64,000 bases of DNA. Origin: Cyanidioschyzon merolae. Lineage: Eukaryota. The stretch lies in NCBI GenBank assembly GCA_000091205.1, contig AP006500.2. One strand, given 5' to 3'. This document shows positions 2,416 through 56,270 of the stretch, in pieces. Positions within the stretch are counted from its first letter, which is position 1; every line of letters starts with the position of its first letter. A program made the translations under genes and the position numbers. Under the pieces are notes generated by a model. That model worked only from the letters and a program-made list of their open reading frames with translations. It made no database searches and was not told where the DNA came from.

Positions 2416-5400
2416 TGGGGTAATTGTACAGGTGCGCGCTTCTCGTTTCTCGCTGGTATTCTAGAAGAGCATTTTATACCGTAGTGTTGAGAAAATTCGA
2501 TCAGAAAGGCTGCATGATTTCGCTGATCGTTTGCGAAAAACGGCATTATTTATGCAAGTCAGATGGATTACCGTCAGCAGGCACACGAATGGTCCATCTC
2601 GTCGTCCGTATCCTGAACGTCATGCACCCGAAAGAGAACATATCCAGCTCCATCTACATGAAGATCTCGTCGTCAATCGATTCAACTTTATACGAGTCCA
2701 AAGGCAGGTCACCACGAAAACGCCACAGAATGTAAAGTTTCCGTACCGTTGATGCGAGCGTTAAAGCAGAGACTCGGCCGGAAGAAGTGAAACGCATGCG
2801 TCCACGGGAGACCGTCTCGCGTTGATCAGTACGCGATCGGGGTCGACCTGGAATGCGAGCAGTTGGTACAGGATCCACGGGTAGTCGTCTGACTCGAGAG
2901 AGAAGCGGTAGCGTTATACGGGGGCACACAAAGAGAAGCCCGCGTTCTGTCGGTAAACAGGAGACAAGAACGCGTGACGACGACTCGAGCCGGAATCAGT
3001 GGGTCAGTGGTGTGCTCGCTGACGAATCCGAAAAAAAACGAACAGGATCATTCGATACGACATCCTTGGTCGAGGCACGTTTGCGGCTTGTCCGCAACGC
3101 ATTCGTCAGCCGTGCTCTTTGACAACGTCGGCTTCTCTCATTCAAAAGCGGTCACGAACTACGCAGCTGAGACTGGCGTTGAGCCGCTCCTCGTGCCTGC
3201 CTATGCTCCCTGCGTCGGTCAAGTCAGAGGCGTCTTCGTGGTGATCAAATGTCATGTTTGCGTTCACGGATCAATGCACGAGCACTTCGCATCCCGAACA
3301 CCGGTATTCCGCAAATCGTGCTTCGACCAGTGGTGATCGTCGATTCCAGGTACGGCCGGTTCCCCGTGGCCAACGCTGTACCTCTTCATCCGGAGGAGAG
3401 ATCCAACGCCTGGATGGAGAGTAATCGGATCTGCTCAATTCTTCCGGGGCTCGTTATCTTCGGGCGTCCGGCGGCATGCCAGTGTATGGAATACCGACTT
3501 CCACATCCATATCGACGCTCTCAGCACAGTATCTAAGAGAAGCGAGTCTTTCTGCGCTGTATTCAGGGTGCGTCCATGAGACCGCGCTGCGGTCGTCGAC
3601 GATTTTCGGTAGCATCGCGTCAAGGAGCGCGTGCTCACGAAATGATTCTTCGAGTTGGAAACGGAGATCGCTGATAACTCGCGTTCTCCCATCGTAGCTG
3701 ATGGCGCTGGACATGCTGGAGCGCGCAGAGCCAGCACTCCTGATTCTATGATAAGCGCGTATCCAACAAGTGCAGTCATCGATTTTACACGATTCCCGTC
3801 GATGCGTTGAGGGTGCCGTCCACGAATCATGGGCAGGTTTCCACCTTGAAACAACTCGGTAAGCAGTGCGTGAAACAGAGACAGATGTCCGAGATTGGTG
3901 CACGAACCGTTAACCGAAAGTCGAATGGCGCGAAAAATCGAAAGTGAGCGGCTCGCTAGCGTCTGCTGCCACCAGCAGCAACCGAGCGCACAAGCACTTT
4001 CCTTACCGAGATCTGAACGCCTCAATCAACCTTCGGAAATATCGTCTGTTTCCAAAGCGTCTACTGGTTCTGTATCGAACGCACGCTCGAAGGAATCGTT
4101 GCGTACGTCGTGCAGATATGTTGCTGAAATGCAGGATACTTTCCATGAAAGACTCAGAGGCCAGAAGCGAGCGCATTGGAATCCCGGCTGGAGCATACCA
4201 CTAGAATATCGTACGGTTCAGCAATGTAGATAGGCTATGGCGCCGTATACAACATCTCGGAACGCTTTTTCGTCGTCATTAGCGTATGACCATGGCACTC
4301 CAGTTTTCCATGTCACTGGGTATCTCAGGCGCAAGTCTTATCAGCCTCTCGAGAAACACGGACGCAGTCCGGAACCCGATTGACCGATACACTTGGCCGG
4401 CTATGGAGCAGACGCTTTCCGTTGCCTTATCAGGCCAAATTACAGTGTACAACTCTGTCATGCCGCCTGGTTCGATTGCTCGAGTACGGCGTCGGATTAC
4501 CGCTTCTCGGAGCGCTGGCTAAGAACATGCAGTGTTCGTACATTGAAGCAATTGCCCTGACGACATTCCAGGGTCGCTGGGAAGGCGATGCATTTTAGAA
4601 TGGTCGCACAATATGCAGCTTGACAAGGTTCCGCGTCAATGTTGCGGTCGGCGTTCGAATGCGTTATGCGGTGTCCTGCTCCTCGAGTCATGCACGCTTC
4701 TTTCTATCCATGCCCTGGACGCTTCTCCAAACCACAGCTAGCGCTATGCGGTCAAGCGCCTCAAAGCGTCCGATCGTATTCATCTGGTTTGGCGCTACTA
4801 GGGTCCACAGAAACGCAAGCATTCAGATGAACTGAGAAAAAAGCAGCGCCTGGCAGCACAAGCTGCACGCTCATGGACGCTGCATTCACGCAGTGACCAC
4901 GTAACCAGCGAGAGACGGATATGCACATACAGACGCGGGACCGTCCAGAATTTCGGGTACATGTACGCAAACATGCACCGACCGCTTCGTATCGAAAACA
5001 CCCAAGGACTAGAGCCTTCCGTCGTTTATCAAACCGGGGTGTGATGACCCACGACCGAAACGCACGCTTTCTGCTCGCCGTAAAACGCGCGTGGAACAAC
5101 TCCATAGCTGTCGAGTGTCCAGCTACATACCTGGAGCCCAGATAGCAACTCGTGAAGCCGTCAATACGAACTCCAATCGGGGTTCAAAATCTGCGAACAT
5201 GACCATTAGATTTCGATGCCCGTTCATCGGTGCTCACTGCTGACCTCGATTCCCGCCTAGTCGCTGTCCCACTGTTCCAGATTCTCCTCCTGATTTCTCC
5301 ACAGCGACCGAAGCTCCATGCGATCCGGGGCGGCTGGCGTGTACCAAGGTCTGCATAGCTTCTGTGGAACGCTTCCGCTAGACATGCATCGTTTGTATGC

Positions 5401-5776: not shown

Positions 5777-6457
5777 CTAACTTTCGAAGAAAATGCTCGA
5801 CAGCCAGCCGAAAACGCTATCGAGCACGTATATGTAACTAACAGACAAGACTAAGAAGATGACAGATATCACAAGAATCCGCAGTGTTCGTTTCGGCGAG
5901 GGCCACTCGATCATCCGGAACTCGTCGGCAAGGTCCAACAGGAACACTATCCACGCCGGCAGACCCGACGTCTCCCGCAACTTCACTCGCCGCATGAAAG
6001 CCACTTCTCGCTCGATTCGTGCGTCCCACTGCTCATTAGGAGTTTGTTTTGGCACTTGATCGACGACCTTGTCAACGTGGTTCGAGATCCAGGGAAACAG
6101 CGCTTCACCTTCACCCGGGTTTGCAACGGCTGCGCTCGTCGACGCCCGCGTCTCCCGGGCAGTTTCAGCGTGCTCGTTCGTTCTTCGGGCGCCGTTTGTG
6201 TTTTCAGTACGCTTCCCAGACTCGATAAGCCGTTCGTCGTCACGTTCTCCTTCGTTCTGAGCGCACCGAAGGCGCGCCGAACGAGGTCTCACCCGAACGG
6301 CAGCAGCAGCAGCACGTTGCCGTCGTCCAAACGGTGCACAGCAGGTTGCTGCTCCTCCCAGCGCGAAACGTCCACGAGTGTAACGAAGTGTCTGTAGAGC
6401 AAAAGCGCTCGTTCTCGAAGCCGCAATCCTTTGATCCATTTCTGGTGCAACAATCAA
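5777..6457 (-). CDS. Hypothetical protein with a single C-terminal hydrophobic segment (tail-anchor-like).
   Basis: 226-aa ORF. The C-terminus ILVISVIFLVLSVSYIYVL is one predicted transmembrane helix followed by a short tail. No recognisable domain. Confidence 0.25.
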   Translation of the reverse strand: MIVAPEMDQRIAASRTSAFALQTLRYTRGRFALGGAATCCAPFGRRQRAAAAAVRVRPRSARLRCAQNEGERDDERLIESGKRTENTNGARRTNEHAETARETRASTSAAVANPGEGEALFPWISNHVDKVVDQVPKQTPNEQWDARIEREVAFMRRVKLRETSGLPAWIVFLLDLADEFRMIEWPSPKRTLRILVISVIFLVLSVSYIYVLDSVFGWLSSIFFES

Positions 6458-7377
6458 ACGGCTACGAGCCGAACAAGTCCACCGGTGTTAACGGAGTGCA
6501 GAGGCCTGTGCTCCCGGACGCAGATCGCATCTGCACTAGTTCACGTGCGACGTGCAGGATGCTCACTGGGCATCGCATACATTATTGTGATATTCGCATC
6601 AGAATAACATCGCCTGCTGCTGGGATGAGGTGCTTGGCGGGGTTCGCTTATGCGCAGCGGTGACGCCTGCACTGCAATATAGCTGCCTTCGTGGCTTCAG
6701 AGTTTCATGGGTGTGTCGTGTCTGCAAATGACGCTGCATACCGCGCTCGGGTTCATGGGGCCCGGGCACAGCCTCGCAGCGTAGTGTTGCGTTGGATGCG
6801 GGCTCAGCGTTCGCCAGTCATGTGCTTCGTATCGCTTCCAAAGAATGCTGCTGGAGCGATTCCACGAAACGGCTCGCTGTCGAGTAGCGACATGGTCCTG
6901 GGTGTCGTTGGACATCAGTCGGATAACATCTGGTACCGTCGGTGATGGAACGGTGGAGCGGAATCCCGAATTAGCGTAGTCGGACGCGATGCTCCGGAAC
7001 GGTGTGTTGTCCCGGATACGAGATGGCTTTCTTTCTTTATGGACAGTGGAAGTCTACAGCAGCGTTGTCTTTAGAGCGTGGATAATGTTGTCGCTGAAAG
7101 CAAATCGAGGTACCGTGCAACGATCGCAGCGAAGCGACTCGGGTACCCGCTGGACGAGCATCGCAAGACTGCAGGCGTCGCACGCCGCGCTGGAGACGCT
7201 CGTGTTCGAACTTGTGCGGTGCGAGCGGCAAAGACGCCTTTTGAGATGTTATCCAGTTTTGACTGGTCCACGTAGAGGGTCATGTAACGAACAATGCCAG
7301 GATTTCTGTGGAAGACATTCTCGGAGCGTTGCGCTGAGCCCGGCGTAGCCGCCTTCACCATCACTAATAGGAATGTC

Positions 7378-16381: not shown

Positions 16382-18429
16382 AATCCTGTTTAGACGTCCG
16401 CACACTTCTGCCCTGTTGTGGTTGCGTGCTCGCAATGGATGTTGCAACTCGCCGACCGACAACAAGTCCAGTGCGAACTTTCCGAGATTTCGTGCATCTC
16501 GGTACCCAGGGACGAACGTGATCGCTCGTCGCGGGGTTCTTGGGATCACCAGCTGCGCGGCCGTTATGCTCTGGAGCTTCCGAGTGGGCGGCAGGAGTCA
16601 CCGTTGGCGGTAGTACCGAGCTAGAAAACGGAAACTCGAGTCTAAAAGTATTCACCGAGACTTTGCGTCGTTTTGCTGGTGAGTCCGCCTGAGGGGCATC
16701 CGAATACTCGCGACCTGTAATCACGAAAACAGAAAACAACTTGTCCTCCGGGTTGTCGGTTCCGAGGCGATGTGCTCGCAGAACATGCACGCTTGTTGTT
16801 GCCCGTTGTCACTGGTCGACGGAGAGTTACGTCTTGTATGACGCATGCTTCAGGTTTTCGGTCGCTGTCCTCGTGGGCAACTCGTGGACGCATCCATTGG
16901 TGCCGCTGGATTGATGATGAATGAAAAAAAGAAAATCGACCTTGTCCCTTGGCGACTCAATCACGTACTCATGCCGCTACTCCTCTGAATTTCTCTCACG
17001 AAAACTAATCATTGATCCTGATCGAAATATAAATCCTAATTTCTGTGTTGCCATCCACGGAAAAGCATTCAACAGCAGCATGATACCTCTCAGAGGAGAT
17101 AGATGCCCAGAGGCTCGCCCTCTCTTCTGGTTTCCATGGAAAAACGAAAACGTTCTTGGACTCGGACTTGAGTCATCGCAACGACCACGAACAGTGGAGC
17201 GTGCGTCAATCGTATGTACCAAGGGATCGTGGACGTAAAAAGACAAGTTTCTCGACTGCATCTTCGGTCTGGATTCTCGTTCCGAACCCTGTTTCATGAT
17301 GAGCAACATCGCCGTCAAAAAGTTATTCGTCGCATGGAACCGCCTATGCTTGCCTTTGCAGCAGTCGAGCCCGTTGAATATGAGCGTGTCTGGAACAAGC
17401 CCGTGATCCTCAGATACGACATCGGGCGCCCACAACGAAGCACGGCATCGAGGAGAAACTTCAACGCCGCTCAACAGCATCGATCGGGTGACTGAAGCAA
17501 GCGTTCACGAGCCACAGGACGTCTCGTGAATGACGAGATATATGGTGGATTTATCGCAACTCCAGCCTACCGTGATATGTTATTTGTGCAAAAGACGGAC
17601 GCCCCGTGGCTGTGCGTCAAGATCATGCAAATGGCAAATGAAGCGTCGATCGCAACGTTCGTCTCTTTTTTAGAAAATGTATGGACAACATGCGGAAGCA
17701 GCGAAATCGTGACTTGGACGTATCCGTCGGTACCCTTCGACTGCTGGCAGGGATCTGCGGTGACACCAGACACCTGTGCCTTGAAAGCCCGAAATAACAG
17801 AGGGCACAAAGACGGATTCGCAGAAAAGAATGCCCGCAATGGTCTATGTTGACGTCCTGGACACCGAACGCAAACTATGATGCGCATACACCCGAGTCCG
17901 CTGCATGCACCTGTTCGACTCCATGCCGCCATGATGTTGACGAGGATGGGTCTTACACGGCAGACGCCCTCGGGTTCACCAGTCAATATACACACTGATC
18001 GTCATCGTTGCAGCAGAAGCGGCACTGAATCATCAGTGATGCTCGCCGTGCCTGACCCGTGCGTAGCGCGTGTTGCTTCCAGGCCTGAGTATTGAAACGG
18101 GAGCGCGGTCGAAGGAGAGGTATCGACAAGATGCAGAGTCAGCTCGAGTCTGTTGTATTGGGACTCGCGTGCAAATCGGTTCACCAGCGTTCGATGCGCT
18201 GCGTGACGACGACAGAATCGTTGATGTCGTCGCGAGGTTACGTTCAACCATGCACACACACACAAGGACGCACAGTGTGAAAACCCAGACGCAATAGACA
18301 TGGGAACTGATCGCGCACTCGTGTCTGACGCCCGAGTGCTTTTCGTATGCGCGGAGCGGGTGCGCTGGGTGCACCGTTCACCAAACGTTGCCGTCCTCGG
18401 ACACGGGACGAACACCACTAGCCTTGCTG

Positions 18430-23229: not shown

Positions 23230-25660
23230 ACTGCGAGGTGCATGTAATCAAAAGCGTTTTCGCGGTTTATTACGGATGCTTTCGAAGTAGGTTCATTTGA
23301 AGGAAGAAATACACTATGAGAAAGGTGTGAACATGGACTTTGGGGATCCTGGAGGGCCTTCATCTCCGGGTTCCGGAAAAATATGAATAAACAGTTTCGA
23401 GCCCAGAGGAACGAAAGGTGACGAAGAAGCGAAGGGGGCAGGTCAAACGTCAAGAGCTTCGGGAGAAACGACACTAATACCAGATTGTAATGAAATCATA
23501 TCTTCGAGGCCATATTTGGGACGCGTACGAGCCCAAAATGCGAGAGGCTATCAGAAAGCGTGCCGATTCGTGTTCGAGCAGTTTTCGCTACGTTTTCCTA
23601 GGACTGATGCATTTAGTAAGGAAGACGTATCGCGACGCGAAGGATATCAAAACATTCGAGGTTCCGGAAGAATTATTCAACAGGACCTTTATTCGGCACG
23701 TGATGAATGGCGCAAGGGAAGCGTCGAGGAGGAATGAGCGAGTGTATGACCTCCACGAGAATCACGCTGAATACCGCTTCAACGGTACTCGATACAGGGT
23801 TGACATGCGTATTTACGAATACAGAGCGATAGAGTACCTCCCGAACCTAAAGAATCGTATGATCGTGAACCTCAAACGTTTCATGATACGCTCCATCTTT
23901 ACGCTCTACCCGGGCCTATCTCGCAAATGAATAGAGAGCATCATCAATGGGATGACAAACGATCGCCAGCATGAACAGGAGATCGAATTCGTCGACGAAA
24001 GGACATAGCACAGGAGTACGAATGAAGCTTCTGTAATGCGTGCGGCTATTCAAGAGCGCCGTGCGGTCTTGGGGCTGATCAATCAAGCAGAAAAGGTATC
24101 AGATATAAGAAAAGATGAAGAAAGATGTCATCTCCTCATCCTACGCTATTTCGTGTTCCTGAACCGAGAACCCGAACGCAAGGCGGAGATGGAGCTGGGT
24201 GTGGGAAAAATGGAGAGTGGGAGAGACAGAAGGCTGTGCTGCTGGAGAAGCGCTTCAACGCTGTACCGTTGTGCACCATCAAGCCACATTTTGTGACTAT
24301 CGATTCCGGCGTTCGCTACGGCATCATGAAGGAGATCTGTCCGGAGTTCAATGTAAGGAAGACAGCGTTCACCAGTGAAAACCGGACAACGCACTGGAAG
24401 AATATCTTCGATTTCAAGCGTCTCAAAACAAACAAGGGGAAGAAATTCGCTCGGATGATCGAAACAGATGGGGTAGCCATGTGTGTACACTGTCGGCGAT
24501 TGAAGGCAGATCGTCCAGTTCCGTCCTCCGCTTCGTCCGTGACGAATTACGACGATGAGTAGGAGGCGGACCCAGCCACGCAGGAGGTAGAGGATACTGA
24601 CTTTGTCGTTGGCGCGGACCCTGGGAATACGAATATCATAACCATCGCAGTACCCAAGCGTGCGGAGGATGGTAACGATCGCAATTTATGCCAGAAAGAC
24701 ATACATCAGTTAAACCTCTCACGAGCGAGATATCACCGAGAGTCGGGAGTACTTAATGCGAGGGAAAAATGAGACATGAAATGCAGGAATGCAAGAGCAC
24801 CTTGAAGCTATGAACCAGATGACGAGCCGCGGAGCAGACTTTCAAGCTTTCAGGAATTCATGGAAGTTCGCGTTGCTCATTGGGATGCGCTGTGGAATGA
24901 GTATGCAAAGCCCTGGTGGGCTCGTTTGCGTATGAATCTATACGGTGGGAGGCAGCGGGCGTTCGCAAACTTTTTCAATCAGTTGAGCGCCTCGAATGAG
25001 GATGAAATTCAGAGGCTCGGTGCAGCGTACGGAGCAGGGCGCTGGAAGACCAAAAAGTGACTATGCTAGCACCAACGATGAGAACGTACAAGGAGTGTGC
25101 AAGGCGTTTCGTTACGATACCAATAGATGAGTTTCGAACATTTTATACACACCATGAACTGGGGTGTACACTCCAGAGAGTGGAGATGGAAAAGTTCCAG
25201 CGGAGCCATGAGGATATAAAAACGTACGGAGCGCTGACGGTAGAGCAAATGGAGAGGAGGGCGAGACTTCGAGGACTACTTGCATTAGTAAGTACAACCA
25301 ATGATGGCAAGAAACGTATGGAATTCGTGAACTGTGACTTTAATGCCGCTATCAATATAAGGAAATGTGCGGTGCTGGAGACGAGACCTCCAGAGTTGAC
25401 ATGGGAGAATTTTGTGGGGCAACCTCTCAAAGTGGAATTATATGAGAAAAAATTGGAATCAGTAGTATGCGGCCGGTCCAAAAAGACTGCAAGGCGTCTG
25501 CACGTTACTAAGAGACGTCTTGTCTAGGGCGGGTTTCTCGCCACTACTCTACACTTCTGGTCGCAACGTTTGTCTTTTGAAAGGCGTTTGTTGTCGGTGA
25601 TGGCGGTGTTGAGTACTAGAATTCCCCGTGTGAAAGCCAGGAGGCAGCTTTGTCAGGTTG
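23230..25660 (+). mobile_element. Fanzor/TnpB-like element, copy A. Its ORF is broken by frameshifts and stops; boundaries are approximate.
   Basis: ORF pieces 23490..23930, 24036..24296, 24125..24562, 24860..25060 and 25057..25527 align in order with the 622-aa ORF at 56757..58625. It encodes Ruv[20 protein letters not shown] near 24590-24650 and RuvC-III MEFVNCDFNAAINIRKCAV near 25320. About 120 nt after the stop codon are conserved with copy B. Confidence 0.7.
23490..25527 (+). pseudogene. Fanzor-like RuvC nuclease pseudogene with at least four frame disruptions.
   Basis: The homologous segments sit in three different frames and are separated by stop codons at 23930, 24562, about 24770 and 25060. 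Confidence 0.7.
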
Positions 25661-29278: not shown

Positions 29279-29850
29279 TGTGCAGACGCCTCCCAGCTTT
29301 TTTCGACCGGAAGCCAGTGGTCAGTTTTGGTTTATCCAGGCACCATACGAGCATCAGAGGCTGCCCCATAACATTAGATTGCCTAATTCCTTCAGCACTC
29401 GTCTTCAGCACCGAAAAATCGTGTGATATTGATGGCAATGTCGGAGTCTCGGATCACGAACTCCTTGTGCGCATTGCCGCTGGTTGAACGCATCAATGCG
29501 AGGATTGCTAGAACTCGCGCGCTCTGTGCGACTACAGTCTCGTTATCGCCCAGTGGGGCAAACACCATTTCTTGCCTGTCCGCCCGCTTCTTCTTCGTCT
29601 TCGGCACTAGCTCTTCATCGCTCGATGCTCGGCGAGAAGAGCGTTTTTCCTTATTTTTACCGGCATTCGGCGACGTTGACCCCTCCTGGATCCCCGACAT
29701 TCATGTCCATACTTTTCCCTTGGATTCTTCATTTCTTCAAACGGACACATTTCGAACACATCTGCTACAAGCCGCGAACATGCATTTGATAACACGCACC
29801 CGGATGCGGAACACCATTGAGGTGAACGACTTGAGTGAAAACGCTCACGC
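29279..29850 (-). mobile_element. Truncated 3'-terminal fragment of a Fanzor-like element (divergent subfamily).
   Basis: It starts with gtgcagacgcctcccagc, which matches the copy-B 3' tail at 56695. It then carries the reverse complement of the Fanzor C-terminal coding region (tattgatggcaatgtcggagtctcggatcac) and about 350 bp homologous to copy-B sequence near 56900-57250. Confidence 0.6.
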
Positions 29851-30033
29851 GGGACATCCGCCGAGGCGCTCTAGCCGACGCCCTCAGCGGTACGTCAAAG
29901 CCGTTCTTTCTCCGTGTTGCATCTGCACCAGCGGTGTGAGCGCTATCGGGAGTAGGCGCGGCAGGCACTCGGTGCACGATAGAATATATGGAACGACCAG
30001 TATATCCTAAAGGAAGTATGGGTCATGAAACAT

Positions 30034-30135
30034 GAAGTTAGGGTTCATCATGATGGACACTTGCTCGATTGCCATAATCCATCCCCCAAACTGGAATCCC
30101 TGCTCAATGGAAACGTTTTGTCGAACAAAAGCAAA
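30034..30135 (+). repeat. Dispersed repeat of about 100 bp; copy 1 of 2, with the second at 38004..38105.
   Basis: ataatccatcccccaaactggaatccctgctcaatggaaacgttttgtcgaacaaaa matches attatccatcccgcaaactggaatcccgtatcaacggaaacgttttgtcaaacaaaa at 38041. Confidence 0.6.
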
Positions 30136-33659: not shown

Positions 33660-36600
33660 CGTGCTTGATGACGCTTGGATCGGAGGAACCTGGAGAACAT
33701 GTTGTGTGGTTGCAGATGCCGCAAGGCGCTTCTGCGAAACGACCGATTCGGTTGCACCATGATCAAGGCGAAACGTTCGTGCGCTAACCTTGCAAATGGA
33801 TGAGCAAGCAGGTGCGGCTCTCGGGTGTCTACGTCCGCTCTGCGATTCGAATGCAGACTCAGCACGCTGCATTCATGGTAGTATGGATAGAGCCTGAGCA
33901 GAGTGCTTTCGCGACGTCTGTTGGTCGTGGAGTTCCTGCAGAGGCAGCTCGCTGCTGGCCCCGAATAGCTTTGAACCATGCTTGAGGAATGCACACTGCG
34001 TTCCGAGATGCGTATGAGCGTCTGGCAAGCGACGCTGACGTGTGTCTCGGCTGCGGTGGAACCGTGTCGACACTGCGGTGCACGTCGCTGTTCGCACATG
34101 GGCAAAGAGAGGGTGGATAACCTCGGCCTAGCATGCGTTCTCAATGACACAATAGACTACCGTGAATGGACCTTGTTGTTGCCCCTGGTGTCGTTGTGAG
34201 TGCTGCAGCATTCGAATGATGCGCTGTTCGCGAAAACGCGATGCCATTCGCATCCGGTAATGTCGCAGTCGATATGCCGGTGAGTGCATTTGTTTCCGTT
34301 CGAAAGCGGACGCGGTGGCGCCAGCGCCTTAGTGCGACGCCCGGCGCTCTCCGCAGGCAAACCGCAAGCAGTGTTCCCGCTGTCGCATCTGACGCTTGAC
34401 TGCTGATCGACGCTGCCTAGTTTTCAGTTCAGTGCGCGGGAACTCTTGGTGCATGGATTTGAACGATGATGACATGCCTCGGAATTCGACACCGTATTGG
34501 ACGCTTCCGGAAACTACCACCGGTTCGGTCAACGAGCCTCGGAACGGCTACAGCCTCCTCGGGATCGCTGCACCTCGAGATGCTTCCAAACATACCTGAT
34601 AGAGGTTGCGCATATGTTCTGGGTGCGCGTTCAGATGCGCAGCCGAGCGAGTCTGCTGACTCATGAATGAAACGAAGTAGGTCATTCGTTTTCGATTTTC
34701 CCTGCTGAAGATGATACTCTCGTGATTGCTCAGATGCGTGGCATACGGCGGCAGCAGCAGCAGCAGCAGCAGCGTCGAGACCTCGTTCTCTAGACTTGTG
34801 TCCAATGAAAATGGAAAAATAAACTGTTTACTCGGTTCGTGTTTGTCGATTTTCTTTTGGAAATTTTATTCGGATGCTAAGCTTCGACACTGAAAGTGCT
34901 GTCATACGGGCTTGTGGATTCTCACAGAACGCCAGGATGCTCGGTCGTCGTTTCCGATTGGCTGCTTTGACCTGCTGCCGCTGGAATTCGATACGTCACT
35001 GGAATGCAGATGATTCGCGACAACCTCGAACTGTTCTTCGTCCAATAAACGATATCATTATTCGATGCAAGTGTACGAGCGTCCGCTCCTCGAATTTCCT
35101 TCCTTGTGGCATGCCCATATCCTGCGTTCTTCATGTGATCGATCTCTCTCTGATTCAACCCATATCATAGGCAGAATACTTCGCAATAATGGATTGATGC
35201 GAAACAACTCGGTTTCGATCCTTGATGACTTGTTCGCAAGCTCATGCCGAATGTTCACTGTACCTACCATCTTAAATATGCGATTTCGTTCCAAATGCAG
35301 ATGCTGCTGTATCTGGAGCCGTTGACGAAACGGGGCTCCACAACGCCAGCATACCTTTCGTGACACACGCCTCCGGTGGATCGTGTTTCTTTTGTTTGCG
35401 TAGATACTGGTCTTGGACTCGAGGTTTCGTCATCGCAACGATTGCTTGCAGTGGACCGTTCGATTTCTCTTTTTCCACAGCTGAGAGCGTAAATGGATCG
35501 AAAGTTCTCGTCTTCTACGTATCTGGATTGTATTTCCGGTACTTGTCCTATCCGGCGCATCATCCTGTTCGGTAAATCCTTTATTGAATGCAGCAGATTT
35601 CGCTTTCGCACATAGCGGACAGCAGACACATAGTGCGGATCACCCAGAAGAAGCCCTTGGTCTAAGGGTACAGCACCGAGCGTGGAAACGGAAAGGAGCA
35701 TCGAGGAGAGTCTTCTGCACCCGACAACGGTATTTACGGAGCGAGGAAGCAAGCGTTCGGGCCTCACGGCGGGCGGCGGCCACAGGAGCAGGATGAGGAG
35801 GTGCTGTTGACGTATACGAAACACACGACCACAATCGACTTTCATTGCTGTGACAGACCCCATCGAGGCTGTATTTAGAGAAGATCAACATGATCTGCGA
35901 GGCTTCGATTGCAACCATTGCTTGTGCATGAAATGTATCGACAAGAGCTGGATGCACTGAGATAGGGACATGAACGCTGCCATCAACATCCTTCGACTGC
36001 TGAGAATGGAACTAGAAGGACAGAGGACAACGGCGTGTTCACAAGTGGAGATAAGCGAGAGGCAAAGGCTGCGATCTGCTGGTGAACATTTACCGAGAGT
36101 TTAGGATCCACGCCCGAATCGCAGGGCCGGCTTCATTTCTACTCTGACATGGGCGTAGACTACATGCCAATAGCGCTGTCCGCTGGGCGTGGCGTGTTGA
36201 ACACCGCTACTCGCGAGCGATGAACAGATTCTCAACGGCAGTTTGCTTCACGTCATAGCAGACCAGCTACACGCACTATGGTTGCTGTTCCTTCAGCAGA
36301 GCAACAAGATTTATAACGAATGCAAACGATGCTTTCGAAAGACCGAGCGGATGCAAGATTCGTCAATCGATGACGATTCTGGTGCGTTATGCCGTCCTCC
36401 ATGGATTCATGGCTTTGGATCTTCTTCACAGCGTGATTTCCTGTCGCAACAGGCGGTCTCCGGAAAACATCATGATCGTCGTGTTCTGGATACACGCCTG
36501 AAACAGGTGCCATTGTCCTCGGGCAAGGCGACTGCGCTGCATGCATTCTCGAGGAAAATGGGTATCTTGCCCGCGTCTACTTCACGAGGAGCCACAACTT

Positions 36601-42959: not shown

Positions 42960-43540
42960 TCTGCGTCTGCCCAACAACGTGCAGACGCCTCCTAGTCTTT
43001 CTAGACCGGCCACCTATGAATGGGTTCAACTTCTTCCGGTATTATTCGACCTTGAGAGGTTCCTTCACAGGGTAAGTTCGCGTCAGCTCTGCGGGTCTCT
43101 TCTGCATCACCGCATATCTCCTTCTATTGATAGCAACGTGAAGGCCTCGATGCACAAACTCCATGCATACATCACCGCTGGTTGAATTCATCAGTGCAAG
43201 GATTCCTCGACGGCGTGCCCTGTGTGCCACTACAGTCTCGGTATCGCCCGTCGGGCAAACATCTTTTCCTGACCATCTCGCCTCTTCTTGTTCCTCGTAT
43301 CACTTGCTCTTCTTCGCGCGAAGAATCGGCGAGGAGTTTTTCCGTTTTTTTTCCGGCAGCCGGCGATGCCAGCTCTCTAGGATCCCCAATTTGCGTATTG
43401 AAATTTTTCCCTTACATTTTTTCTTCTTCGAATGAGCGCACGTCGAACGCATCTGCTATGAACCACGAAAGAGCATTGAATGTCAAACACCAGGAAGTAA
43501 AACACATTCGAGGTGAAAGACGTGAACAGGTTGCATAGAG
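42960..43540 (-). mobile_element. Truncated 3'-terminal fragment of a Fanzor-like element, same subfamily as 29279..29850.
   Basis: gtgcagacgcctcctagtctttctagaccggccacc at 42979 matches the copy-B tail. The minus-strand ORF 43042..43230 translates MEFVHRGLHVAINRRRYAVMQKRPAELTRT, a degenerate RuvC-III region (compare MEFVNRDFNAAVNIRRCAVLETRPPELNTRE in copy B). About 350 bp that follow are collinear with 29476..29850. Confidence 0.6.
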
Positions 43541-51024: not shown

Positions 51025-51213
51025 AGAAAATACGTTTCAGCTTTTGTAGGCACCAGGCCGCACAACATAGAGGAAAGCGTATCGCCTATACGAACCCAAA
51101 TGGCATCTTTGCTGCGACCTGACGCACGCCGCTCGGTATCCCGCAACGTGTACCTGGGCGAGATGCAGTCGCCGTTCGCGTGCAGGAGGAGGAGGTGGTG
51201 GTGGTTGCGGAGA

Positions 51214-51433
51214 CAGCACGCTATACTATTCAGGTAGGTAGGTACGCTCTCGGCACACCGGGAGATCCAGAATGCGTCGAGGCCATTGCTGGATATGCCC
51301 ATCTTAGAACGAAAAGAGAAGGACAGCACGCTATACGATTCAGGCAGGTAGGTACGCTCTCGGCACACCGGGAGCTCCAGAATGCGTCGAGGCCATCGCT
51401 GGATATGCCCATCTTAGAACGAAAAGAGAAGGA
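51214..51433. repeat. Direct tandem duplication, 110 bp x 2.
   Basis: cagcacgctatac(t/g)attcagg(t/c)aggtaggtacgctctcggcacaccgggag...gaaaagagaagga is found at 51214 and 51324. Confidence 0.85.
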
Positions 51434-52614
51434 GTTCTTCTTGCGAACACCAGCGAACATGCTAAAGTTTCGGTTCAGTTCCACTATGATCAGCATAAGC
51501 CTGCGCGGGCTCTTTCCTGCGACTGCTTTCTTCCCGATTCCTTTATTTCCAGCTTAAAGTGCATCGGTCTCTCATGTGCTGCCAGCACCGTTGTCAGCAG
51601 TTCAAGGTTCTGGATCCTGGCGTTGGAGTCTCGATGACGCTATTGCCAGCTGTTGTCGACGCATTTCATGCACGGGCAAAAGTTGCGATCGATGCAGTAC
51701 GTACGATTTTTCATCTCCACCGTATAAAGCCTCGGTGCGCCGTTCGCAGCCGCTACACTTGACAATCGTCAGGTGTTGCCGTATTTCCACTGCACATCCT
51801 CTTGCTCAGCGGGCCGCATGTGGCGCGTGAACGCTTACTTCATCGCTTGGCACATGTCGTTGACGGGTCCAGAAGGCCCTCCTTGATACCTCCCTGGCTT
51901 TTCCCGCCATATGCCGCATGCGACGATCACGGGCTTCCTCTGGGCGTTCCGGTGGCGAGTACTTTGTTCGCAACACAGCCACGCGCACGCTGTACGATTC
52001 GGTAGAAGAGTTTCGGAAGGCGATTTCGTCCGTGCGAGAACGAGACCGAGGTAGAAAGTCGAGGTCAGACAACGTGACGAGATCATTCGATCCGGCTGCG
52101 CTTCGAGCTTTCAGCGGCGATACGCGACTTCCAATGGACATGATCCCTGCGATGACTGAATTCTGAGTGCGACACTCCTTTCCATGGAAGCAGAAGCGCC
52201 GAAAAGCCTCGGATGGCGTATCCTGTAAACGGTACCATGCTCATGTGGAATCCGGTTTGATCGATAGCGAAGAAAAACGAAGGATTCGTTTTTCGAACGG
52301 AATCGATTATTATATGACGTGATGATTTCAGCGGACATTCGATGTGAGTTTCTGGAGCAGTCGTCAAGCGACCACGTCGAGGTTTCTTTTCGTCAGTATA
52401 GGAGCGTGAATCGCTGCGCCTGCGACTTGCCCAGATCTTAGCGATGAAAAACTTGAAGCCTATTTGATTTGCGCATGTCACCTGTGAGGACGGAGACGCG
52501 TGGAGGATAACGCGTTCTGGTAAAATAATGAGGCAAGTTATTTTGCGAGTCCTTGTTCACGAGCGATGCAGGTTATCTCGATTCGTACGACGGTACGAGT
52601 TCTAGCGGCAAGGC

Positions 52615-53000
52615 GTCGAAGAAGCCTCCCCGAAAATACGACCGAGAATGCTGAAACCACGCATGTATCCGTTCGTCTTTATTGATGTTTTTCGATTCCC
52701 GAAGTTGTCCATTTGAAACCAAGGATTCCTCGAACTCGTACCCTCTCTGTGCCACTACAGTCTCATTGTCGCTCCGTCAGACAAACACATTTTCTCGGCA
52801 ATCTCCTCCCCTCTTCTTCTTCTTTCCCGTCACTTGCTCTTCTTGGCTCGACGGTCGCCCAGAAGAATATTATTTTCGATTTTTCCTGCAGCCGGCCGCA
52901 CAGGGCCTCCAGGATCACTTACTTTTATGTCCATAATTTTCCCTTGGATTTTTTATCTCTTCAATTGAATACATTCTTTAGACCCTTAGGTGAGAACCTT
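52615..53000 (-). mobile_element. Fanzor-like 3' fragment abutting a Tc1/mariner transposase remnant (composite decayed transposon).
   Basis: aaggattcctcgaactcgtaccctctctgtgccactacagtctcattgtcgctccgtcag and the sequence after it are collinear with the fragments at 29.5 kb and 43.2 kb and with copy B near 56920. Confidence 0.5.
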
Positions 53001-53048
53001 TCCGGGACGAGAAGAACTTGCAGAAGAAAGCCGACATGGGCGTCGGAG

Positions 53049-53560
53049 TCATCGTATGGTGAACGCTTGCGCGATTCGCCCAGTGGAGCGATCATTATGT
53101 TTCACGATAGAAAACATTCGTTCGATGGCATTGTACCACAGAGTGTACGGAGGAATGAAAAGCAGGTCCATGTTGGATCGAACCAGCAAATGCTCGAACG
53201 TAGGGGTAATAGTGAAATACCACGCAGTCCAATAGAAGGACATCGTCAGACGTCAGGGAAAAGTCTTCTAGGACTCGATAAAGTGGGGTTGTTGTGTGAG
53301 CCTTCTCTACGAGAGAAACTTAGGCCGCCAAATAAATCCACTGCAGTTAGAATAGATGATGTCGTCCCTTTTTCGAGTTCGATTGTACGTACATCGTGCT
53401 CCCTGCTCCGCGAGTACACATTTCCGCTCCGACCGTTTCGTCCGAAGGAATTCTCATCGACGGGAAAAACAAACCCACGTCCATCTGCTTCATACCGATC
53501 GCTGAGTTCCGGGAACGTTGTTGTACTTGCGATTTCGGTGGAAGATGGATGCACGTGAAC
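53049..53560 (-). pseudogene. IS630/Tc1-mariner DDE transposase remnant.
   Basis: The minus-strand ORFs translate VFPVDENSF, which resembles the first-Asp motif vfiDEsgf. They also give LLFIPPYTLWYNAIERMFSIVK, which resembles LPPYSPDLNPIE, the third catalytic motif of Tc1/mariner transposases. The frame is interrupted. Confidence 0.5.
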
Positions 53561-56270
53561 TATGACTTTTTTCGCGGCGGTATCCCAGTGTTTTCATAAC
53601 CATACGAGCAAGCTGATACGAATCAGAGACGCACTTGGCGACTGCGATCGACGCATTGTTTTCCTACTAATGACAGCAATGAATCTTTGGGTATATCGGT
53701 TTTTGGCGCGGGGCGCGTACAACTTTTTCTTTCTTTCAGTGCTCGCCAGTCAGCAGAGTACTGTGGTATGACTGATCTGAAGGAGGAATGCAGTCATCCT
53801 TGCACTGTTCAGTAGAGGATATAGATTCAAAAGGCAATTCCCCGACGATCTCTGCTGTACAACGCATAGTGACGTCGATCGCTTGTTCCTCACTGTGGAA
53901 ACAGCATTCAATTCCATGCAGCGAAGATCCTGTACTATTGAGCTGAATGTCCAGAGGTACCGGATGTCGTGCGCCCCAAAAGAGTCAGCGATTCGGACGT
54001 CACCGCCGCCACTGATGACGGCTCATGCCCTCCGGCACAGGCGCAGATCTCGCAGATCTCGGCAGGGACCCCTGCCTGGACGCCCGTGAGAGTGGATCAC
54101 TTGTACCGAGGCGCGCGGTGATAAATTTCCATCATCATCGCTGAGCATGTGCCGGATGAAGATTCATCACGGACGAGTGACTGATACTGCACATCGATCC
54201 TGCGCGAGTATAGTCAGACGATTCTGTACAGAAAGCAGTATATAAATGCTTGCGCGACGCCGCACCGAATGATGCTCGAGTACCTATGTCCACTTCGTAC
54301 ACTTAAATCCGTGTTTTCGGTTGGCGTTCAGGCACAGGCGCGCCGTCTTTCGACGCGCGATCCGTGTCGGGCGGTGGTACTCCAACGTCGCCGAGTCCGG
54401 GAACAGAGGCGGCGCGAATCGAATCGTGCGTTTCGCTATCCCTGTCGCCGAACTAGTACGTATCGCGATCGCAGCCGGACGCATTTTTGTAGATTGTGCC
54501 GTCTACTAGTGGGGCAAGACGCTTCCTTGAACACACCTGCGGCACTGCTACGTTCCAGAAGCTGAACTGATCCTGCTGCTCGGCTAGGATGCAAGCTCGA
54601 GACGGTACCTTCTGGTGCACGCCTATCGTTCCATGCAAAAGATCGGTCAGCATGCAGCGTCCTGGATCAGCGACCTCGGCGGTGGCGGTACAGTTTTCCG
54701 CATGGAGCTAATGTTCAGCACCCGTTCCAGACCAGTCATCCTCTCAATAGCACCTTTCCGTCTCAACCGTTCCTAATGTGAACTCGCTGGCGTTCCAGCA
54801 CTATGCTACAACCGATCATAGCGCTATGCAGCGCCGGGCTGGAGCAATGGAAACGGCAGACGATGAGCGCCTGACTCGCAATCGACTAGTATCCGATAGT
54901 GGTATTGCCCCGCTTATTGGTGTCGCTGCAGTTCTCCGTCGGTGCGTGCGGGCAGGTGGCATCGTCAGAGCATCGTTGAGCCTTGATCGGACCACCCTAT
55001 TCGGATGGTGACACAGGTTTCCGTCTGGAACCAAACAGCATCGCACGCCAAAATCTTAGGTCTGCAGTCCTGTCCAGGCGCTGAAGTACAGTTATCTGAA
55101 TAAGCCAGTCAGTCGGCGCTCATCTTGCGTGGTCGTCTTCCTAAGCGAGTTGGGTTGCGCGATGAGCAGGACTCTGGGCAAACGAACGCTAAACTGGAGT
55201 CCCGGCATTTGTATACATCTGGCTGGCAGCTGCTGAACAACAAATCATCACTAGCTCAGATGATCTATCGTCCACTGTTGGAAAGACTCGTTTATCCAAT
55301 ATCTCGGATATTCGTGCTTCTGCATAGGCGCACAAGTCGCTAGACTCATCGAAGCATCGCTGTGAGAAAAACGTGCTGTGGCCCGCTTCGTTGTCGTGAA
55401 CACAGGTGATCCGCATCCATAGAGGTGCGCACTTCCCGTAAATGCAGACCGCTCGTGAAGCCATTACGGATTCTGTGTCTTGGTCCAGGAGAGGGGAACG
55501 CTTCGCTCTCACGCTCAACATTAGTCAACAGGCTCAGTACAATGCCGTACTAGGCGTCGCTCGCGCGGTTTTCGACTCTCCCGACTGCCAGCCAGAGCGG
55601 CATGACGCCTCGTGTCGTCAGTGGTCATCGATAGCCTACTGCAATGCAACCGTAGCCCTCAAGTCTCGCCTTTCCAAGACACGGAATCCGGTGGTATGCC
55701 CCTTTCCTGCCGCACTCCGCTGGTCGCTCCTGCCTTGCATGTGAGACTGAAACGACGCAAAGATCCACAAAACCCAGACGCCGCAGCCACAAATAACAAC
55801 ATCCCACCTCGTGAAACGATTTCCAGTAGTCCACCCGTTCCAGCACTGAGAAAGGCAGAACATATCCATATTACCTCATGGAGGCCTCCATTTGCGGTTT
55901 GTGCTCTCTAGTACGCTTCGTTGGCATATTCGCTCCTTCTGGGTCCGTTGGTGTGTGCGGAGGTCCCTCTATCCACCTGTCAAGGAGCGTTGATCGTATG
56001 CAAGCGCTTCTCATGGGGCTTTAGCGGTACTCGGGGCAACTCGAATACTCAGCGTGTGCAGGGCGCTGGTCGACGCAGCAACTGCTCCCGTGCCTCACCC
56101 AGACATAGCCATACACGTATGACCAGCTTTAGTCTAGTGCGCTGCAACAGACTTCCGACATTTCGCCCCCAAGCAGCAAGTGGGGCCTTGAGGAGCCCTG
56201 TAAGCGTGTGGTCGCAGCTTCAGTACAGCAGAGGACCATCTCGACTTGCTCTATTTTAGCCACGGGTTCC

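What the first reader, a model, noticed from the sequence alone, without database searches (positions are those of the whole stretch)
53049..53560. Tc1/mariner (IS630-like) DDE transposase remnant directly adjoining a Fanzor fragment
Minus-strand translations give FVFPVDENSFGRN, a first-Asp box of vfiDEsgf type. They also give LLFIPPYTLWYNAIERMFSIVK, which is clearly related to the LPPYSPDLNPIE box of Tc1/mariner transposases. On the minus strand the order is DDE remnant (53554 down to 53049) followed by the Fanzor C-terminal remnant (53000 down to 52615). This matches the known habit of Fanzor1-type genes riding inside Tc1/mariner and other DNA transposons downstream of the transposase, and it supports the Fanzor interpretation from an independent angle.
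Basis: partly seen in the sequence, partly recalled or inferred. Interest (0 to 1): 0.6.

Follow-up and report, generated by a model that had tools for sequence, protein, structure and literature searches.

The report
Dead IS630-type transposase beside dead Fanzor1

Summary
The window is Cyanidioschyzon merolae 10D nuclear DNA. On the minus strand, 53867->53049 is a transposase pseudogene with 3 frameshifts and 3 in-frame stops. Repaired across three frames, it passes Pfam DDE_3 (45.5-46.6 bits, cutoff 28.6) and matches NCBIfam IS630 (E ~1e-14). The D, D and E codons are intact and the family spacing is DD34E. A Fanzor1 start codon lies 115 bp downstream at 52934. The decayed RuvC half lies further on, at 52717->51490.

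The same transposase-then-Fanzor1 order recurs at three other decayed loci. It also occurs in the closest intact relative, metagenome contig L008: a 308-aa transposase, a 24-bp gap, then a 646-aa Fanzor1 that is 32% identical to C. merolae CMe-1, with candidate TA-flanked TIRs. No TIR or TA duplication survives at the target.

Both components were noted before, but separately: eight bacterial-like transposase relics in 2007, and the Fanzor1 repeat CMe-1A, "classification unknown", in 2013. Fanzor1 inside Mariner/Tc1-type elements is known. This is a new member of a known kind, of modest interest.

The parts
53868..53895 (-). 5' terminus of the repeat unit, CAGTGAGGAACAAGCGATCGACGTCACT, ending directly at the transposase ATG. 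It may be a decayed left TIR.
   Evidence: Homology with paralog L005 begins at 53893 / L005 5987. The upstream flanks are unrelated (local score 21 against a shuffle mean of 24.4). The intact relative L008 has the same compact layout, with a TIR ending 14 nt before the ATG. No matching right arm was found.
53049..53867 (-). IS630-like DD34E transposase pseudogene of about 275 codons. ATG at 53867; HTH-like stretch at 53603-53568; D1 codon 53458-53456; D2 codon 53229-53227; E codon 53123-53121; stop 53051-53049. Frameshifts lie near 53570, 53301 and 53171. In-frame stops are at 53738-53736 and 53669-53664 (two).
   Evidence: Pfam DDE_3 46.6/45.5 bits against a cutoff of 28.6. NCBIfam IS630 E 1.9e-14 / 4.5e-14. 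Alignment with intact relatives P0031 and P0032. Coordinates.
52974..53048 (-). Spacer between the transposase stop and the Fanzor1 5'UTR. It is still part of the unit shared with the paralog.
   Evidence: blastn of L005 5992-6936 against window 53888->52974, 71% identity.
52722..52973 (-). Fanzor1 5'UTR, start codon (52934-52932) and about 66 N-terminal codons (MDIKVSDPGGPVRPAAGK...). It corresponds to CMe-1A consensus nt ~865-1090.
   Evidence: CMe-1A nt 885-968 matches 52954->52873 at 77%. CMe-1 protein aa 1-18 match at 72%. Multiple alignment with CMe-1A and the copies at 43 kb and 29.5 kb. Pairwise identity to those copies is 70-72%.
51490..52717 (-). Decayed Fanzor1 core and RuvC half ('family B'). 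F..lPL motif at 52623-52576; candidate RuvC-I Asp at 52262-52260; RuvC-II region KPVIVACGIW at 51936-51907; zinc-finger plus RuvC-III CPCMKC..RHRDSNA at 51678-51604 (Asp 51630-51628); stop 51492-51490.
   Evidence: Colinear with copies at 34869-36077(+), 16924-17761(+) and L005 9080-9956. The family consensus scores 37-40 bits on a Fanzor1 profile, while shuffles reach 4.5 at most. The target's own RuvC-III fragment alone is not significant (E 7).
2974..4100 (+). Second, independent decayed copy of the same architecture. A DDE_3-type relic (VLFDNVGFSH...LLVPAYAPC) at 2974-3336 is followed by a Fanzor1 relic at 3433-~4100 (RDLNASINL at ~4010).
   Evidence: tblastn of P0001 and CMe-1 protein and ORFs. 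Its paralog on L005 (70-72% identity) has the same order.

Best explanation
The locus is a dead copy of a bicistronic cut-and-paste DNA transposon in the Cyanidioschyzon merolae nuclear genome.

The ancestral element encoded two genes. The first was a small (~280-310 aa) IS630-type DD34E transposase of the IS630/Tc1/mariner superfamily. By analogy with that superfamily, it would have bound short TIRs and moved the element by excision and insertion at TA. The second, immediately downstream on the same strand, was a Fanzor1 protein, a eukaryotic TnpB homologue. By analogy with characterised Fanzors, it would be an omega-RNA-guided DNA endonuclease carried as a passenger or helper.

At this locus both genes are inactivated and the ends are eroded, so nothing here is functional. 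The transposase has 3 frameshifts and 3 stops. The Fanzor1 retains its N-terminus and a heavily decayed RuvC half, and lacks about 200 codons relative to CMe-1.

Shown by tool results: the family assignment of both relics, their adjacency, the recurrence of the arrangement, and the existence of an intact homologous two-gene unit. Inferred: the transposition mechanism, RNA-guided activity, and that this particular copy arrived as one piece.
For: - Organism: exact protein matches to C. merolae 10D.
- Transposase: DDE_3 at 46.6 bits, above the gathering score, profile positions 5-138/146. IS630 at E 1.9e-14. D/D/E codons are present and spacing is DD34E in alignment with intact relatives.
- Calibration: the PUl-1 'Mariner' transposase that carries Fanzor1 in Pythium hits the same models (IS630 143 bits, DDE_3 62.7 bits) and has almost the same geometry, D141/D216/E260 against D138/D215/E252.
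- Fanzor1 N-terminus: the published CMe-1A consensus and CMe-1 protein (PMC3627910 supplements) map to 52954->52873 with the start codon at 52934.
- Fanzor1 RuvC half: the family-B consensus scores 37-40 bits on a Fanzor1 profile, with shuffles reaching 4.5 at most.
- No host DNA between the relics: the paralog shares 53893->52974 and Fanzor sequence starts at 52973.
- Recurrence: window 2974-3336 then 3433-4100; L005 6001-6856 then 6966-7316; L005 1991->1770 then 1460->496. All are on the same strand with gaps of roughly 100-300 bp.
- Intact relatives: P0031 (127 bits) on L008 is followed after 24 bp by a 646-aa Fanzor1 (192.7 bits; 32% identity to CMe-1 over 658 aa, E 1.6e-93). P0032 on L009 is followed after 28 bp by an ORF similar to the L008 Fanzor1 N-terminus (E 7e-6).
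- L008 has a candidate 33-nt imperfect TIR with TA-CAGT termini bracketing both genes.
- Age: DDE paralogs are 71% identical and the Fanzor N-terminal piece is 70-72% identical to its relatives, so they fall in the same age layer.
Against: - No TIR and no TA duplication can be found at the target or its paralog. The best inverted matches equal the shuffles.
- The 3' end of the element is undefined.
- The target's own Fanzor C-terminal fragment is not significant alone (E 7) and gets no Pfam or PDB hit.
- The Fanzor N-terminal piece (77% identical to CMe-1A) abuts family B exactly where family-B copies elsewhere begin (52717 against 34869). The paralog's homology also stops exactly where Fanzor sequence starts (52974). 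Both are compatible with juxtaposition of separate modules rather than one intact insertion.
- The abundant CMe-1A consensus carries no transposase (PMC3627910).
- The L008 TIR is only a candidate; 2% of shuffles reach its score.
Confidence: 0.8

Rival explanations
1. Two unrelated dead elements lie side by side. An IS630-like relic and Fanzor1 (CMe-1-type) fragments landed next to each other by nesting in a repeat-rich region. Alternatively, Fanzor1 elements may insert preferentially at the end of the IS630-like element.
For: The window is crowded with Fanzor1 pieces, at least nine. The shared DDE unit ends (52974) exactly where Fanzor sequence starts. Each DDE relic is joined to a different part of Fanzor1: nt ~865 in the target, nt 2738 in L005, and aa ~300 or aa 467 in the other subfamily. 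CMe-1A has no transposase and no TIRs (PMC3627910). No TIRs were found here.
Against: All four DDE relics seen have Fanzor1 downstream on the same strand at about 100-300 bp, in two subfamilies whose paralogs are colinear across both genes. The closest intact transposases (L008, L009) are followed at 24-28 bp by Fanzor1-type ORFs. The differing junctions are what internal deletions of a two-gene element would produce. The DDE unit and the adjoining Fanzor piece are of similar age, 71% against 70-72%.
Confidence: 0.13
2. It is a bacterial IS630 insertion sequence, acquired recently by horizontal transfer or present through contamination, and unrelated to eukaryotic Tc1/mariner elements.
For: The best curated match is the bacterial NCBIfam IS630 model. 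No solved Tc1/mariner transposase is detectable by sequence. The genome paper found the eight transposase-related elements closest to bacterial transposases (PMC1955436).
Against: It lies in the finished nuclear chromosome between host genes. The same locus is present at 98.8% identity in environmental strains. There are several paralogs only about 71% identical, all pseudogenes. It is linked to Fanzor1, a eukaryotic and viral protein. IS630-type transposases also accompany Fanzor1 in oomycetes. An ultimately bacterial ancestry of the family is not excluded.
Confidence: 0.04
3. The stretch encodes a functional or domesticated protein, for example a transposase-derived host gene or the 281-aa plus-strand ORF 52713-53558.
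For: The D, D and E codons are all still present. A long antisense ORF exists. The locus is conserved between strains.
Against: Three frameshifts and three in-frame stops interrupt the transposase frame. Paralogs are equally broken. No NCBI protein from C. merolae matched in the protein searches. The antisense ORF starts with TTG and mirrors the relic. The strains are too close (4 differences in 920 bp) for conservation to mean anything.
Confidence: 0.02

Closest known systems
PUl-1 / PUl-2 of Pythium ultimum (Mariner-superfamily elements carrying Fanzor1; Bao & Jurka 2013, PMC3627910)
   Same: The gene order is the same: a small IS630-type transposase first, then Fanzor1 about 100 bp downstream on the same strand. 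The transposase has nearly identical geometry (D141/D216/E260 against D138/D215/E252) and hits the same Pfam and NCBIfam models.
   Different: PUl-1 is intact, with 24-bp TIRs and TA duplications. The C. merolae copy is a pseudogene pair without detectable ends. Pairwise identity is only ~27% around the D2-E box. D2-E spacing is 43 in PUl-1 against 34 here.
Unnamed metagenomic element on contig L008 (ENA ERZ19571233, scaffold_8848): P0031 transposase plus a 646-aa Fanzor1
   Same: It is the closest intact relative found. The transposase scores 127 bits against the C. merolae relic profile and shares the motifs VDETSFGRN, VLLLDNVxFHH and LLFVPPYSPWFNPVE. Its Fanzor1 is 32% identical to CMe-1 over 658 aa. 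The TIR-to-ATG layout is equally compact.
   Different: Both genes are intact, the spacer is 24 bp, and candidate 33-nt TIRs with TA flanks are present. The host is unknown and GC is 0.59. It is a different lineage, not a C. merolae sequence.
CMe-1A / TE-N2_CMe, the Fanzor1 repeat family of C. merolae (Bao & Jurka 2013); the '3.2-kbp repetitive elements' of Nozaki et al. 2007
   Same: The Fanzor1 start region at 52954->52873 is 77% identical to CMe-1A nt 885-968. Several true CMe-1A copies lie in the same window.
   Different: The CMe-1A consensus has an 826-nt 5' module where the transposase would be. It has no TIRs and was left unclassified. The target's Fanzor core (family B) is far more diverged and is not detected by CMe-1 protein at E<0.01.
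Bacterial IS630 family insertion sequences
   Same: It has a DDE_3 catalytic domain with the IS630 profile matched over positions 68-275 of 299, a small transposase, and a faint HTH_33 trace.
   Different: Scores are below the NCBIfam equivalog cutoff (39-53 bits against 100). It sits in a eukaryotic nuclear genome, is linked to Fanzor1, and is a pseudogene.

Membership tests
IS630/Tc1/mariner superfamily (IS630-like, Pfam DDE_3) | DDE_3-type catalytic domain recognised by the curated profile above its gathering score | tested here: met
The repaired target scores 46.6 and 45.5 bits against a cutoff of 28.6. The paralog L005(4) scores 50.3 bits.
IS630/Tc1/mariner superfamily (IS630-like, Pfam DDE_3) | Catalytic triad D, D, E with family-typical spacing (DD34E) | tested here: met
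   D1 53458-56, D2 53229-27 and E 53123-21 are present. Exactly 34 residues separate D2 from E in L005(4), the window 3-kb copy and intact P0031. The target fits once a 2-residue frame-junction overlap is allowed for.
IS630/Tc1/mariner superfamily (IS630-like, Pfam DDE_3) | N-terminal helix-turn-helix DNA-binding domain | tested here: inconclusive
   There are only faint traces. In the paralog, HTH_33 gives E 0.019 and HTH_Tnp_Tc3_2 gives E 0.21. The IS630 profile alignment reaches back to position 68. The intact relative P0032 has HTH_Tnp_IS630 plus HTH_33.
IS630/Tc1/mariner superfamily (IS630-like, Pfam DDE_3) | Terminal inverted repeats | tested here: not met
   The best inverted match of the 5' terminus within the downstream 2.2 kb equals the shuffle expectation, in the target (score 9 against 9.0) and in L005 (10 against 9.1). 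Decay of about 30% makes this uninformative rather than contradictory. Intact L008 has a candidate 33-nt TIR.
IS630/Tc1/mariner superfamily (IS630-like, Pfam DDE_3) | TA target-site duplication | tested here: inconclusive
   The 5' flank reads CA in the target and TG in the paralog, each one substitution away from TA. The 3' end is unknown. L008 has TA at both candidate ends.
NCBIfam NF033545 IS630 family transposase (equivalog) | Score at or above the curated cutoff of 100 bits | tested here: not met
   Scores are 39.3-53.8 bits, as expected for frameshifted, diverged eukaryotic relics. PUl-1 scores 143 bits.
Fanzor1 (eukaryotic TnpB homologue) | Homology to Fanzor1 proteins including the RuvC-II region, zinc finger and RuvC-III motif (RDxNAAxN) | tested here: met
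   This is met at family level. The family-B consensus scores 37-40 bits over profile positions 219-360, with RHRDLNAAIN restored, and shuffles reach 4.5 at most. The B2 copy alone gives E 1.7e-4. The target copy alone gives E 7, reading RHRDSNARIQN.
Fanzor1 (eukaryotic TnpB homologue) | Fanzor1 N-terminus and start homologous to a described Fanzor1 | tested here: met
   MDIKVSDPGGPVRPAAGK against CMe-1 MEKEVEDPGGPVSPAAGK. CMe-1A nt 885-968 matches at 77%.
Fanzor1 (eukaryotic TnpB homologue) | Associated omega-RNA and RNA-guided DNA cleavage | not testable with these tools
   No Rfam family matched in the window. The gene is a pseudogene here.

The most novel reading that the evidence does not exclude
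The Fanzor1 repeats that fill about 5% of the C. merolae genome (CMe-1A, so far unclassified and lacking a transposase, TIRs and TSDs) may descend from an IS630-like/Fanzor1 two-gene transposon whose transposase died out early. The Fanzor1 core then swapped its 5' module and kept amplifying in a genome with no intact DNA transposase. CMe-1A copies are ~79% identical to each other, against 71% for the DDE relics. That would imply spread independent of a transposase, for example Fanzor-guided homing.
Probability: 0.2. Interest if true: 0.65.

Novelty: new member of a known kind. Interest (0 to 1): 0.3.

Why it matters
The finding ties together two observations in a model alga that were published separately and left unexplained. 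One is the eight "bacterial-like" transposase relics. The other is the unclassified Fanzor1 repeat family, which is this tiny genome's main repeat. The link gives that Fanzor1 lineage a plausible original vehicle, an IS630-type element of the kind seen in oomycetes. The search also turned up an intact, compact (~3.1 kb) IS630-like/Fanzor1 unit in a metagenome, which could be tested experimentally. It does not reveal a new kind of system.

Tried and rejected
- Pfam, NCBIfam and PDB sequence searches with the Fanzor-like relics or their consensus gave no hits. The PDB profile search with the transposase alignment also gave none.
- TIR searches by blastn-short and by shuffle-controlled local alignment found nothing at the target or at L005.
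- The 3' boundary could not be resolved by comparing copies.
- The selection test against the orthologous strain locus was uninformative. L002 is 98.8% identical, with 4 differences in the DDE unit.
- The direct profile hit on the target's own RuvC-III fragment was not significant.
- I considered whether FFFAIDQTGFH in family B is a DDE first-Asp box rather than RuvC-I. I rejected that because the downstream KPVIVGYG, zinc-finger and RDxNAA order and spacing fit Fanzor1. That single motif remains ambiguous.
- Synteny between L001 and the window was rejected: the BOP1 gene there has no counterpart here.
- Rfam and tRNA scans found nothing.

Full report
**Context.** The window is nuclear DNA of the red alga Cyanidioschyzon merolae 10D. 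Its 1527-aa XRN1-like ORF and its 225-aa YEATS ORF are exact matches to XP_005538656 and XP_005538666 on a 1.25-Mb record. GC content is about 0.54. No Rfam family or tRNA is found anywhere in the window.

**The observation.** The two ORFs are in different frames. A third frame between them carries the second-Asp box (AHTTTPLYRVLEDFSLTSDDVLLLDCVVFHYYPYVRAF). The three-frame repair scores 46.6 bits on Pfam DDE_3 (E 4e-12, profile positions 5-138 of 146) and E 1.9e-14 on NCBIfam IS630.

The relic is longer than the finding's coordinates.
- The start codon is at 53867 and the stop at 53049.
- An HTH-like stretch lies at 53603-53568.
- The catalytic codons are at 53458-56 (D), 53229-27 (D) and 53123-21 (E).
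- There are three frameshifts and three in-frame stops.

In alignment with intact relatives the family has DD34E spacing.

**What adjoins it.** The published C. merolae Fanzor1 element CMe-1A (3169-bp consensus) and its 734-aa protein were taken from the supplements of Bao & Jurka 2013 (PMC3627910) and mapped onto the window. Genuine CMe-1A copies lie at:
- 23243-25586 (+)
- 59319->56623 (-)
- 38093->37456 (-), a 5' fragment of the TE-N2 type
- about 29.3-30.1 kb and 43.0-43.5 kb, as deletion derivatives

At the target, CMe-1A nt 885-968 match 52954->52873 at 77%. The ORF there starts MDIKVSDPGGPVRPAAGK, against MEKEVEDPGGPVSPAAGK in CMe-1. A multiple alignment shows that 52973->52722 corresponds to CMe-1A nt ~865-1090: the 5'UTR, the start codon at 52934 and about 66 codons.

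Further downstream, 52717->51490 belongs to a much more diverged repeat, which I call family B. Other copies are at 34869-36077 (+), 16924-17761 (+) and on metagenome contig L005. A majority consensus of these copies restores a reading frame of about 310 codons with only four stops. On a Fanzor1 profile that includes the intact L008 protein, the consensus scores 37-40 bits over the RuvC-II region, zinc finger and RuvC-III (RHRDLNAAIN). 500 shuffles reach 4.5 bits at most. The target copy on its own is too decayed to be significant (E 7). Neither it nor the consensus hits Pfam or PDB.

**One element or two.** The only close protein homologue in the first search, P0001, led to contig L001. A metagenome scan returned L002-L004 and L005-L007.
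- L002-L004 are the same locus in close strains. L002 is 98.8% identical over 12.8 kb.
- L005-L007 are a paralogous locus and contain L001.

The paralog shares window 53893->52974 at 71% identity. The upstream flanks are unrelated. That defines the 5' edge of the unit (CAGTG..., 26 nt before the ATG). It also shows that no host DNA separates the transposase unit from the Fanzor sequence.

In L005 the transposase relic (6001-6856) is followed about 110 bp later by a Fanzor1 C-terminal piece (CMe-1 aa 612-728). A second DDE relic on the same contig (1991->1770) is followed by Fanzor1 aa ~300-680 (1460->496). That second copy is the paralog of another pair in the window, 2974-3336 followed by 3433-4100. 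It preserves a textbook E-box, LLFVPAYSPRLNPVE.

So four of four DDE relics examined, in two subfamilies, have Fanzor1 downstream on the same strand.

A profile search with the four repaired relics then found intact relatives.
- P0031 (308 aa) on L008 is followed after 24 bp by a 646-aa ORF that is a full-length Fanzor1. It scores 192.7 bits and is 32% identical to CMe-1 over 658 aa (E 1.6e-93).
- P0032 (297 aa, with HTH_Tnp_IS630 + HTH_33 + DDE_3) on L009 is followed after 28 bp by an ORF resembling the L008 Fanzor1 N-terminus.
- L008 also has a candidate 33-nt imperfect TIR with TA-CAGT-type termini that brackets both genes. Its score is 12 against 8.8 +/- 1.1 for shuffles.

**Classification.** The PUl-1 transposase, called 'Mariner' by Bao & Jurka and linked to Fanzor1 in Pythium, scores 143 bits on NCBIfam IS630 and 62.7 bits on DDE_3. 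Its catalytic residues sit almost where the target's do. The C. merolae relics hit the same models and no others. No solved Tc1/mariner structure is detectable by sequence. The accurate label is an IS630-like DD34E branch of the IS630/Tc1/mariner superfamily.

**What could not be shown.** No TIR or TA duplication survives at the target or its paralog, and the 3' end is undefined. The Fanzor N-terminal piece abuts family B exactly where other family-B copies begin. The paralog's homology also ends exactly where Fanzor sequence starts. A modular juxtaposition at this particular copy therefore cannot be excluded. The comparison between strains is too shallow to test selection.

**Relation to the literature.** Nozaki et al. 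2007 (PMC1955436) counted eight class II, transposase-related elements in this genome, closest to bacterial transposases. They separately described 3.2-kb repeats making up about 5% of the genome. Bao & Jurka 2013 identified those repeats as the Fanzor1 element CMe-1A, with no transposase, no TIRs and 'classification unknown'. Fanzor1 inside Mariner/Tc1 elements is established (PMC3627910; PMC10530073). I found no paper in the searchable library linking the C. merolae transposase relics to its Fanzor1 lineage.

**Verdict.** The finding is real and correctly interpreted in outline. It is a new member of a known kind. Its interest is modest: it suggests the original carrier of the C. merolae Fanzor1 family, and the search turned up an intact related element.

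Noticed in passing
window 51212-51431: There is a tandem repeat of a 110-nt unit, two copies at 96% identity, directly after the Fanzor relic's stop. It has 2 copies in strain contig L002 and 3 in L003. It is the most divergent stretch between strains (16 differences in 220 nt) and is found nowhere else in the window.
   Followed up: partly
window 23243-25586 (+) and 59319-56623 (-): Two large CMe-1A Fanzor1 copies lie in the window, 81-86% identical to the published consensus and 79% to each other. The first begins at consensus nt 827, and the copy at 43481 begins at nt 830. This suggests a real module boundary near nt 827-865 of CMe-1A, which is also where the target's Fanzor piece meets the transposase unit.
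   Followed up: partly
window 34869-36077 (+), 16924-17761 (+), 52717-51490 (-); L005 9080-9956: A second, much older Fanzor1-type repeat family ('family B') exists alongside CMe-1. It is not detectable with CMe-1 protein at E<0.01. Bao & Jurka list only one Fanzor family for C. merolae.
   Followed up: partly
window 2974-4100 (+): This is a second decayed transposase-plus-Fanzor1 pair, of a different subfamily from the target. Gene calls on it exist in public metagenome data (P0035, P0036).
   Followed up: partly
L008 665-3795 (ENA ERZ19571233 scaffold_8848): This is an apparently intact ~3.1-kb element. It comprises a candidate TA-flanked 33-nt TIR, a 308-aa IS630-like transposase, a 24-bp spacer, a 646-aa Fanzor1, about 165 nt of non-coding sequence, and the right TIR. 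The host organism is unknown and GC is 0.59.
   Followed up: partly
window 52713-53558 (+): A 281-aa TTG-initiated ORF runs antisense across the whole transposase relic. It is most likely a by-product of the relic's composition. It was not examined further.
   Followed up: no
window 29280-30122 and 42964-43481 (-): These are short internally deleted Fanzor1 derivatives that join CMe-1A nt ~830-1090 to nt ~2840-3100. They are 70-72% identical to the target's Fanzor N-terminal piece and may be non-autonomous members of the same old subfamily.
   Followed up: partly
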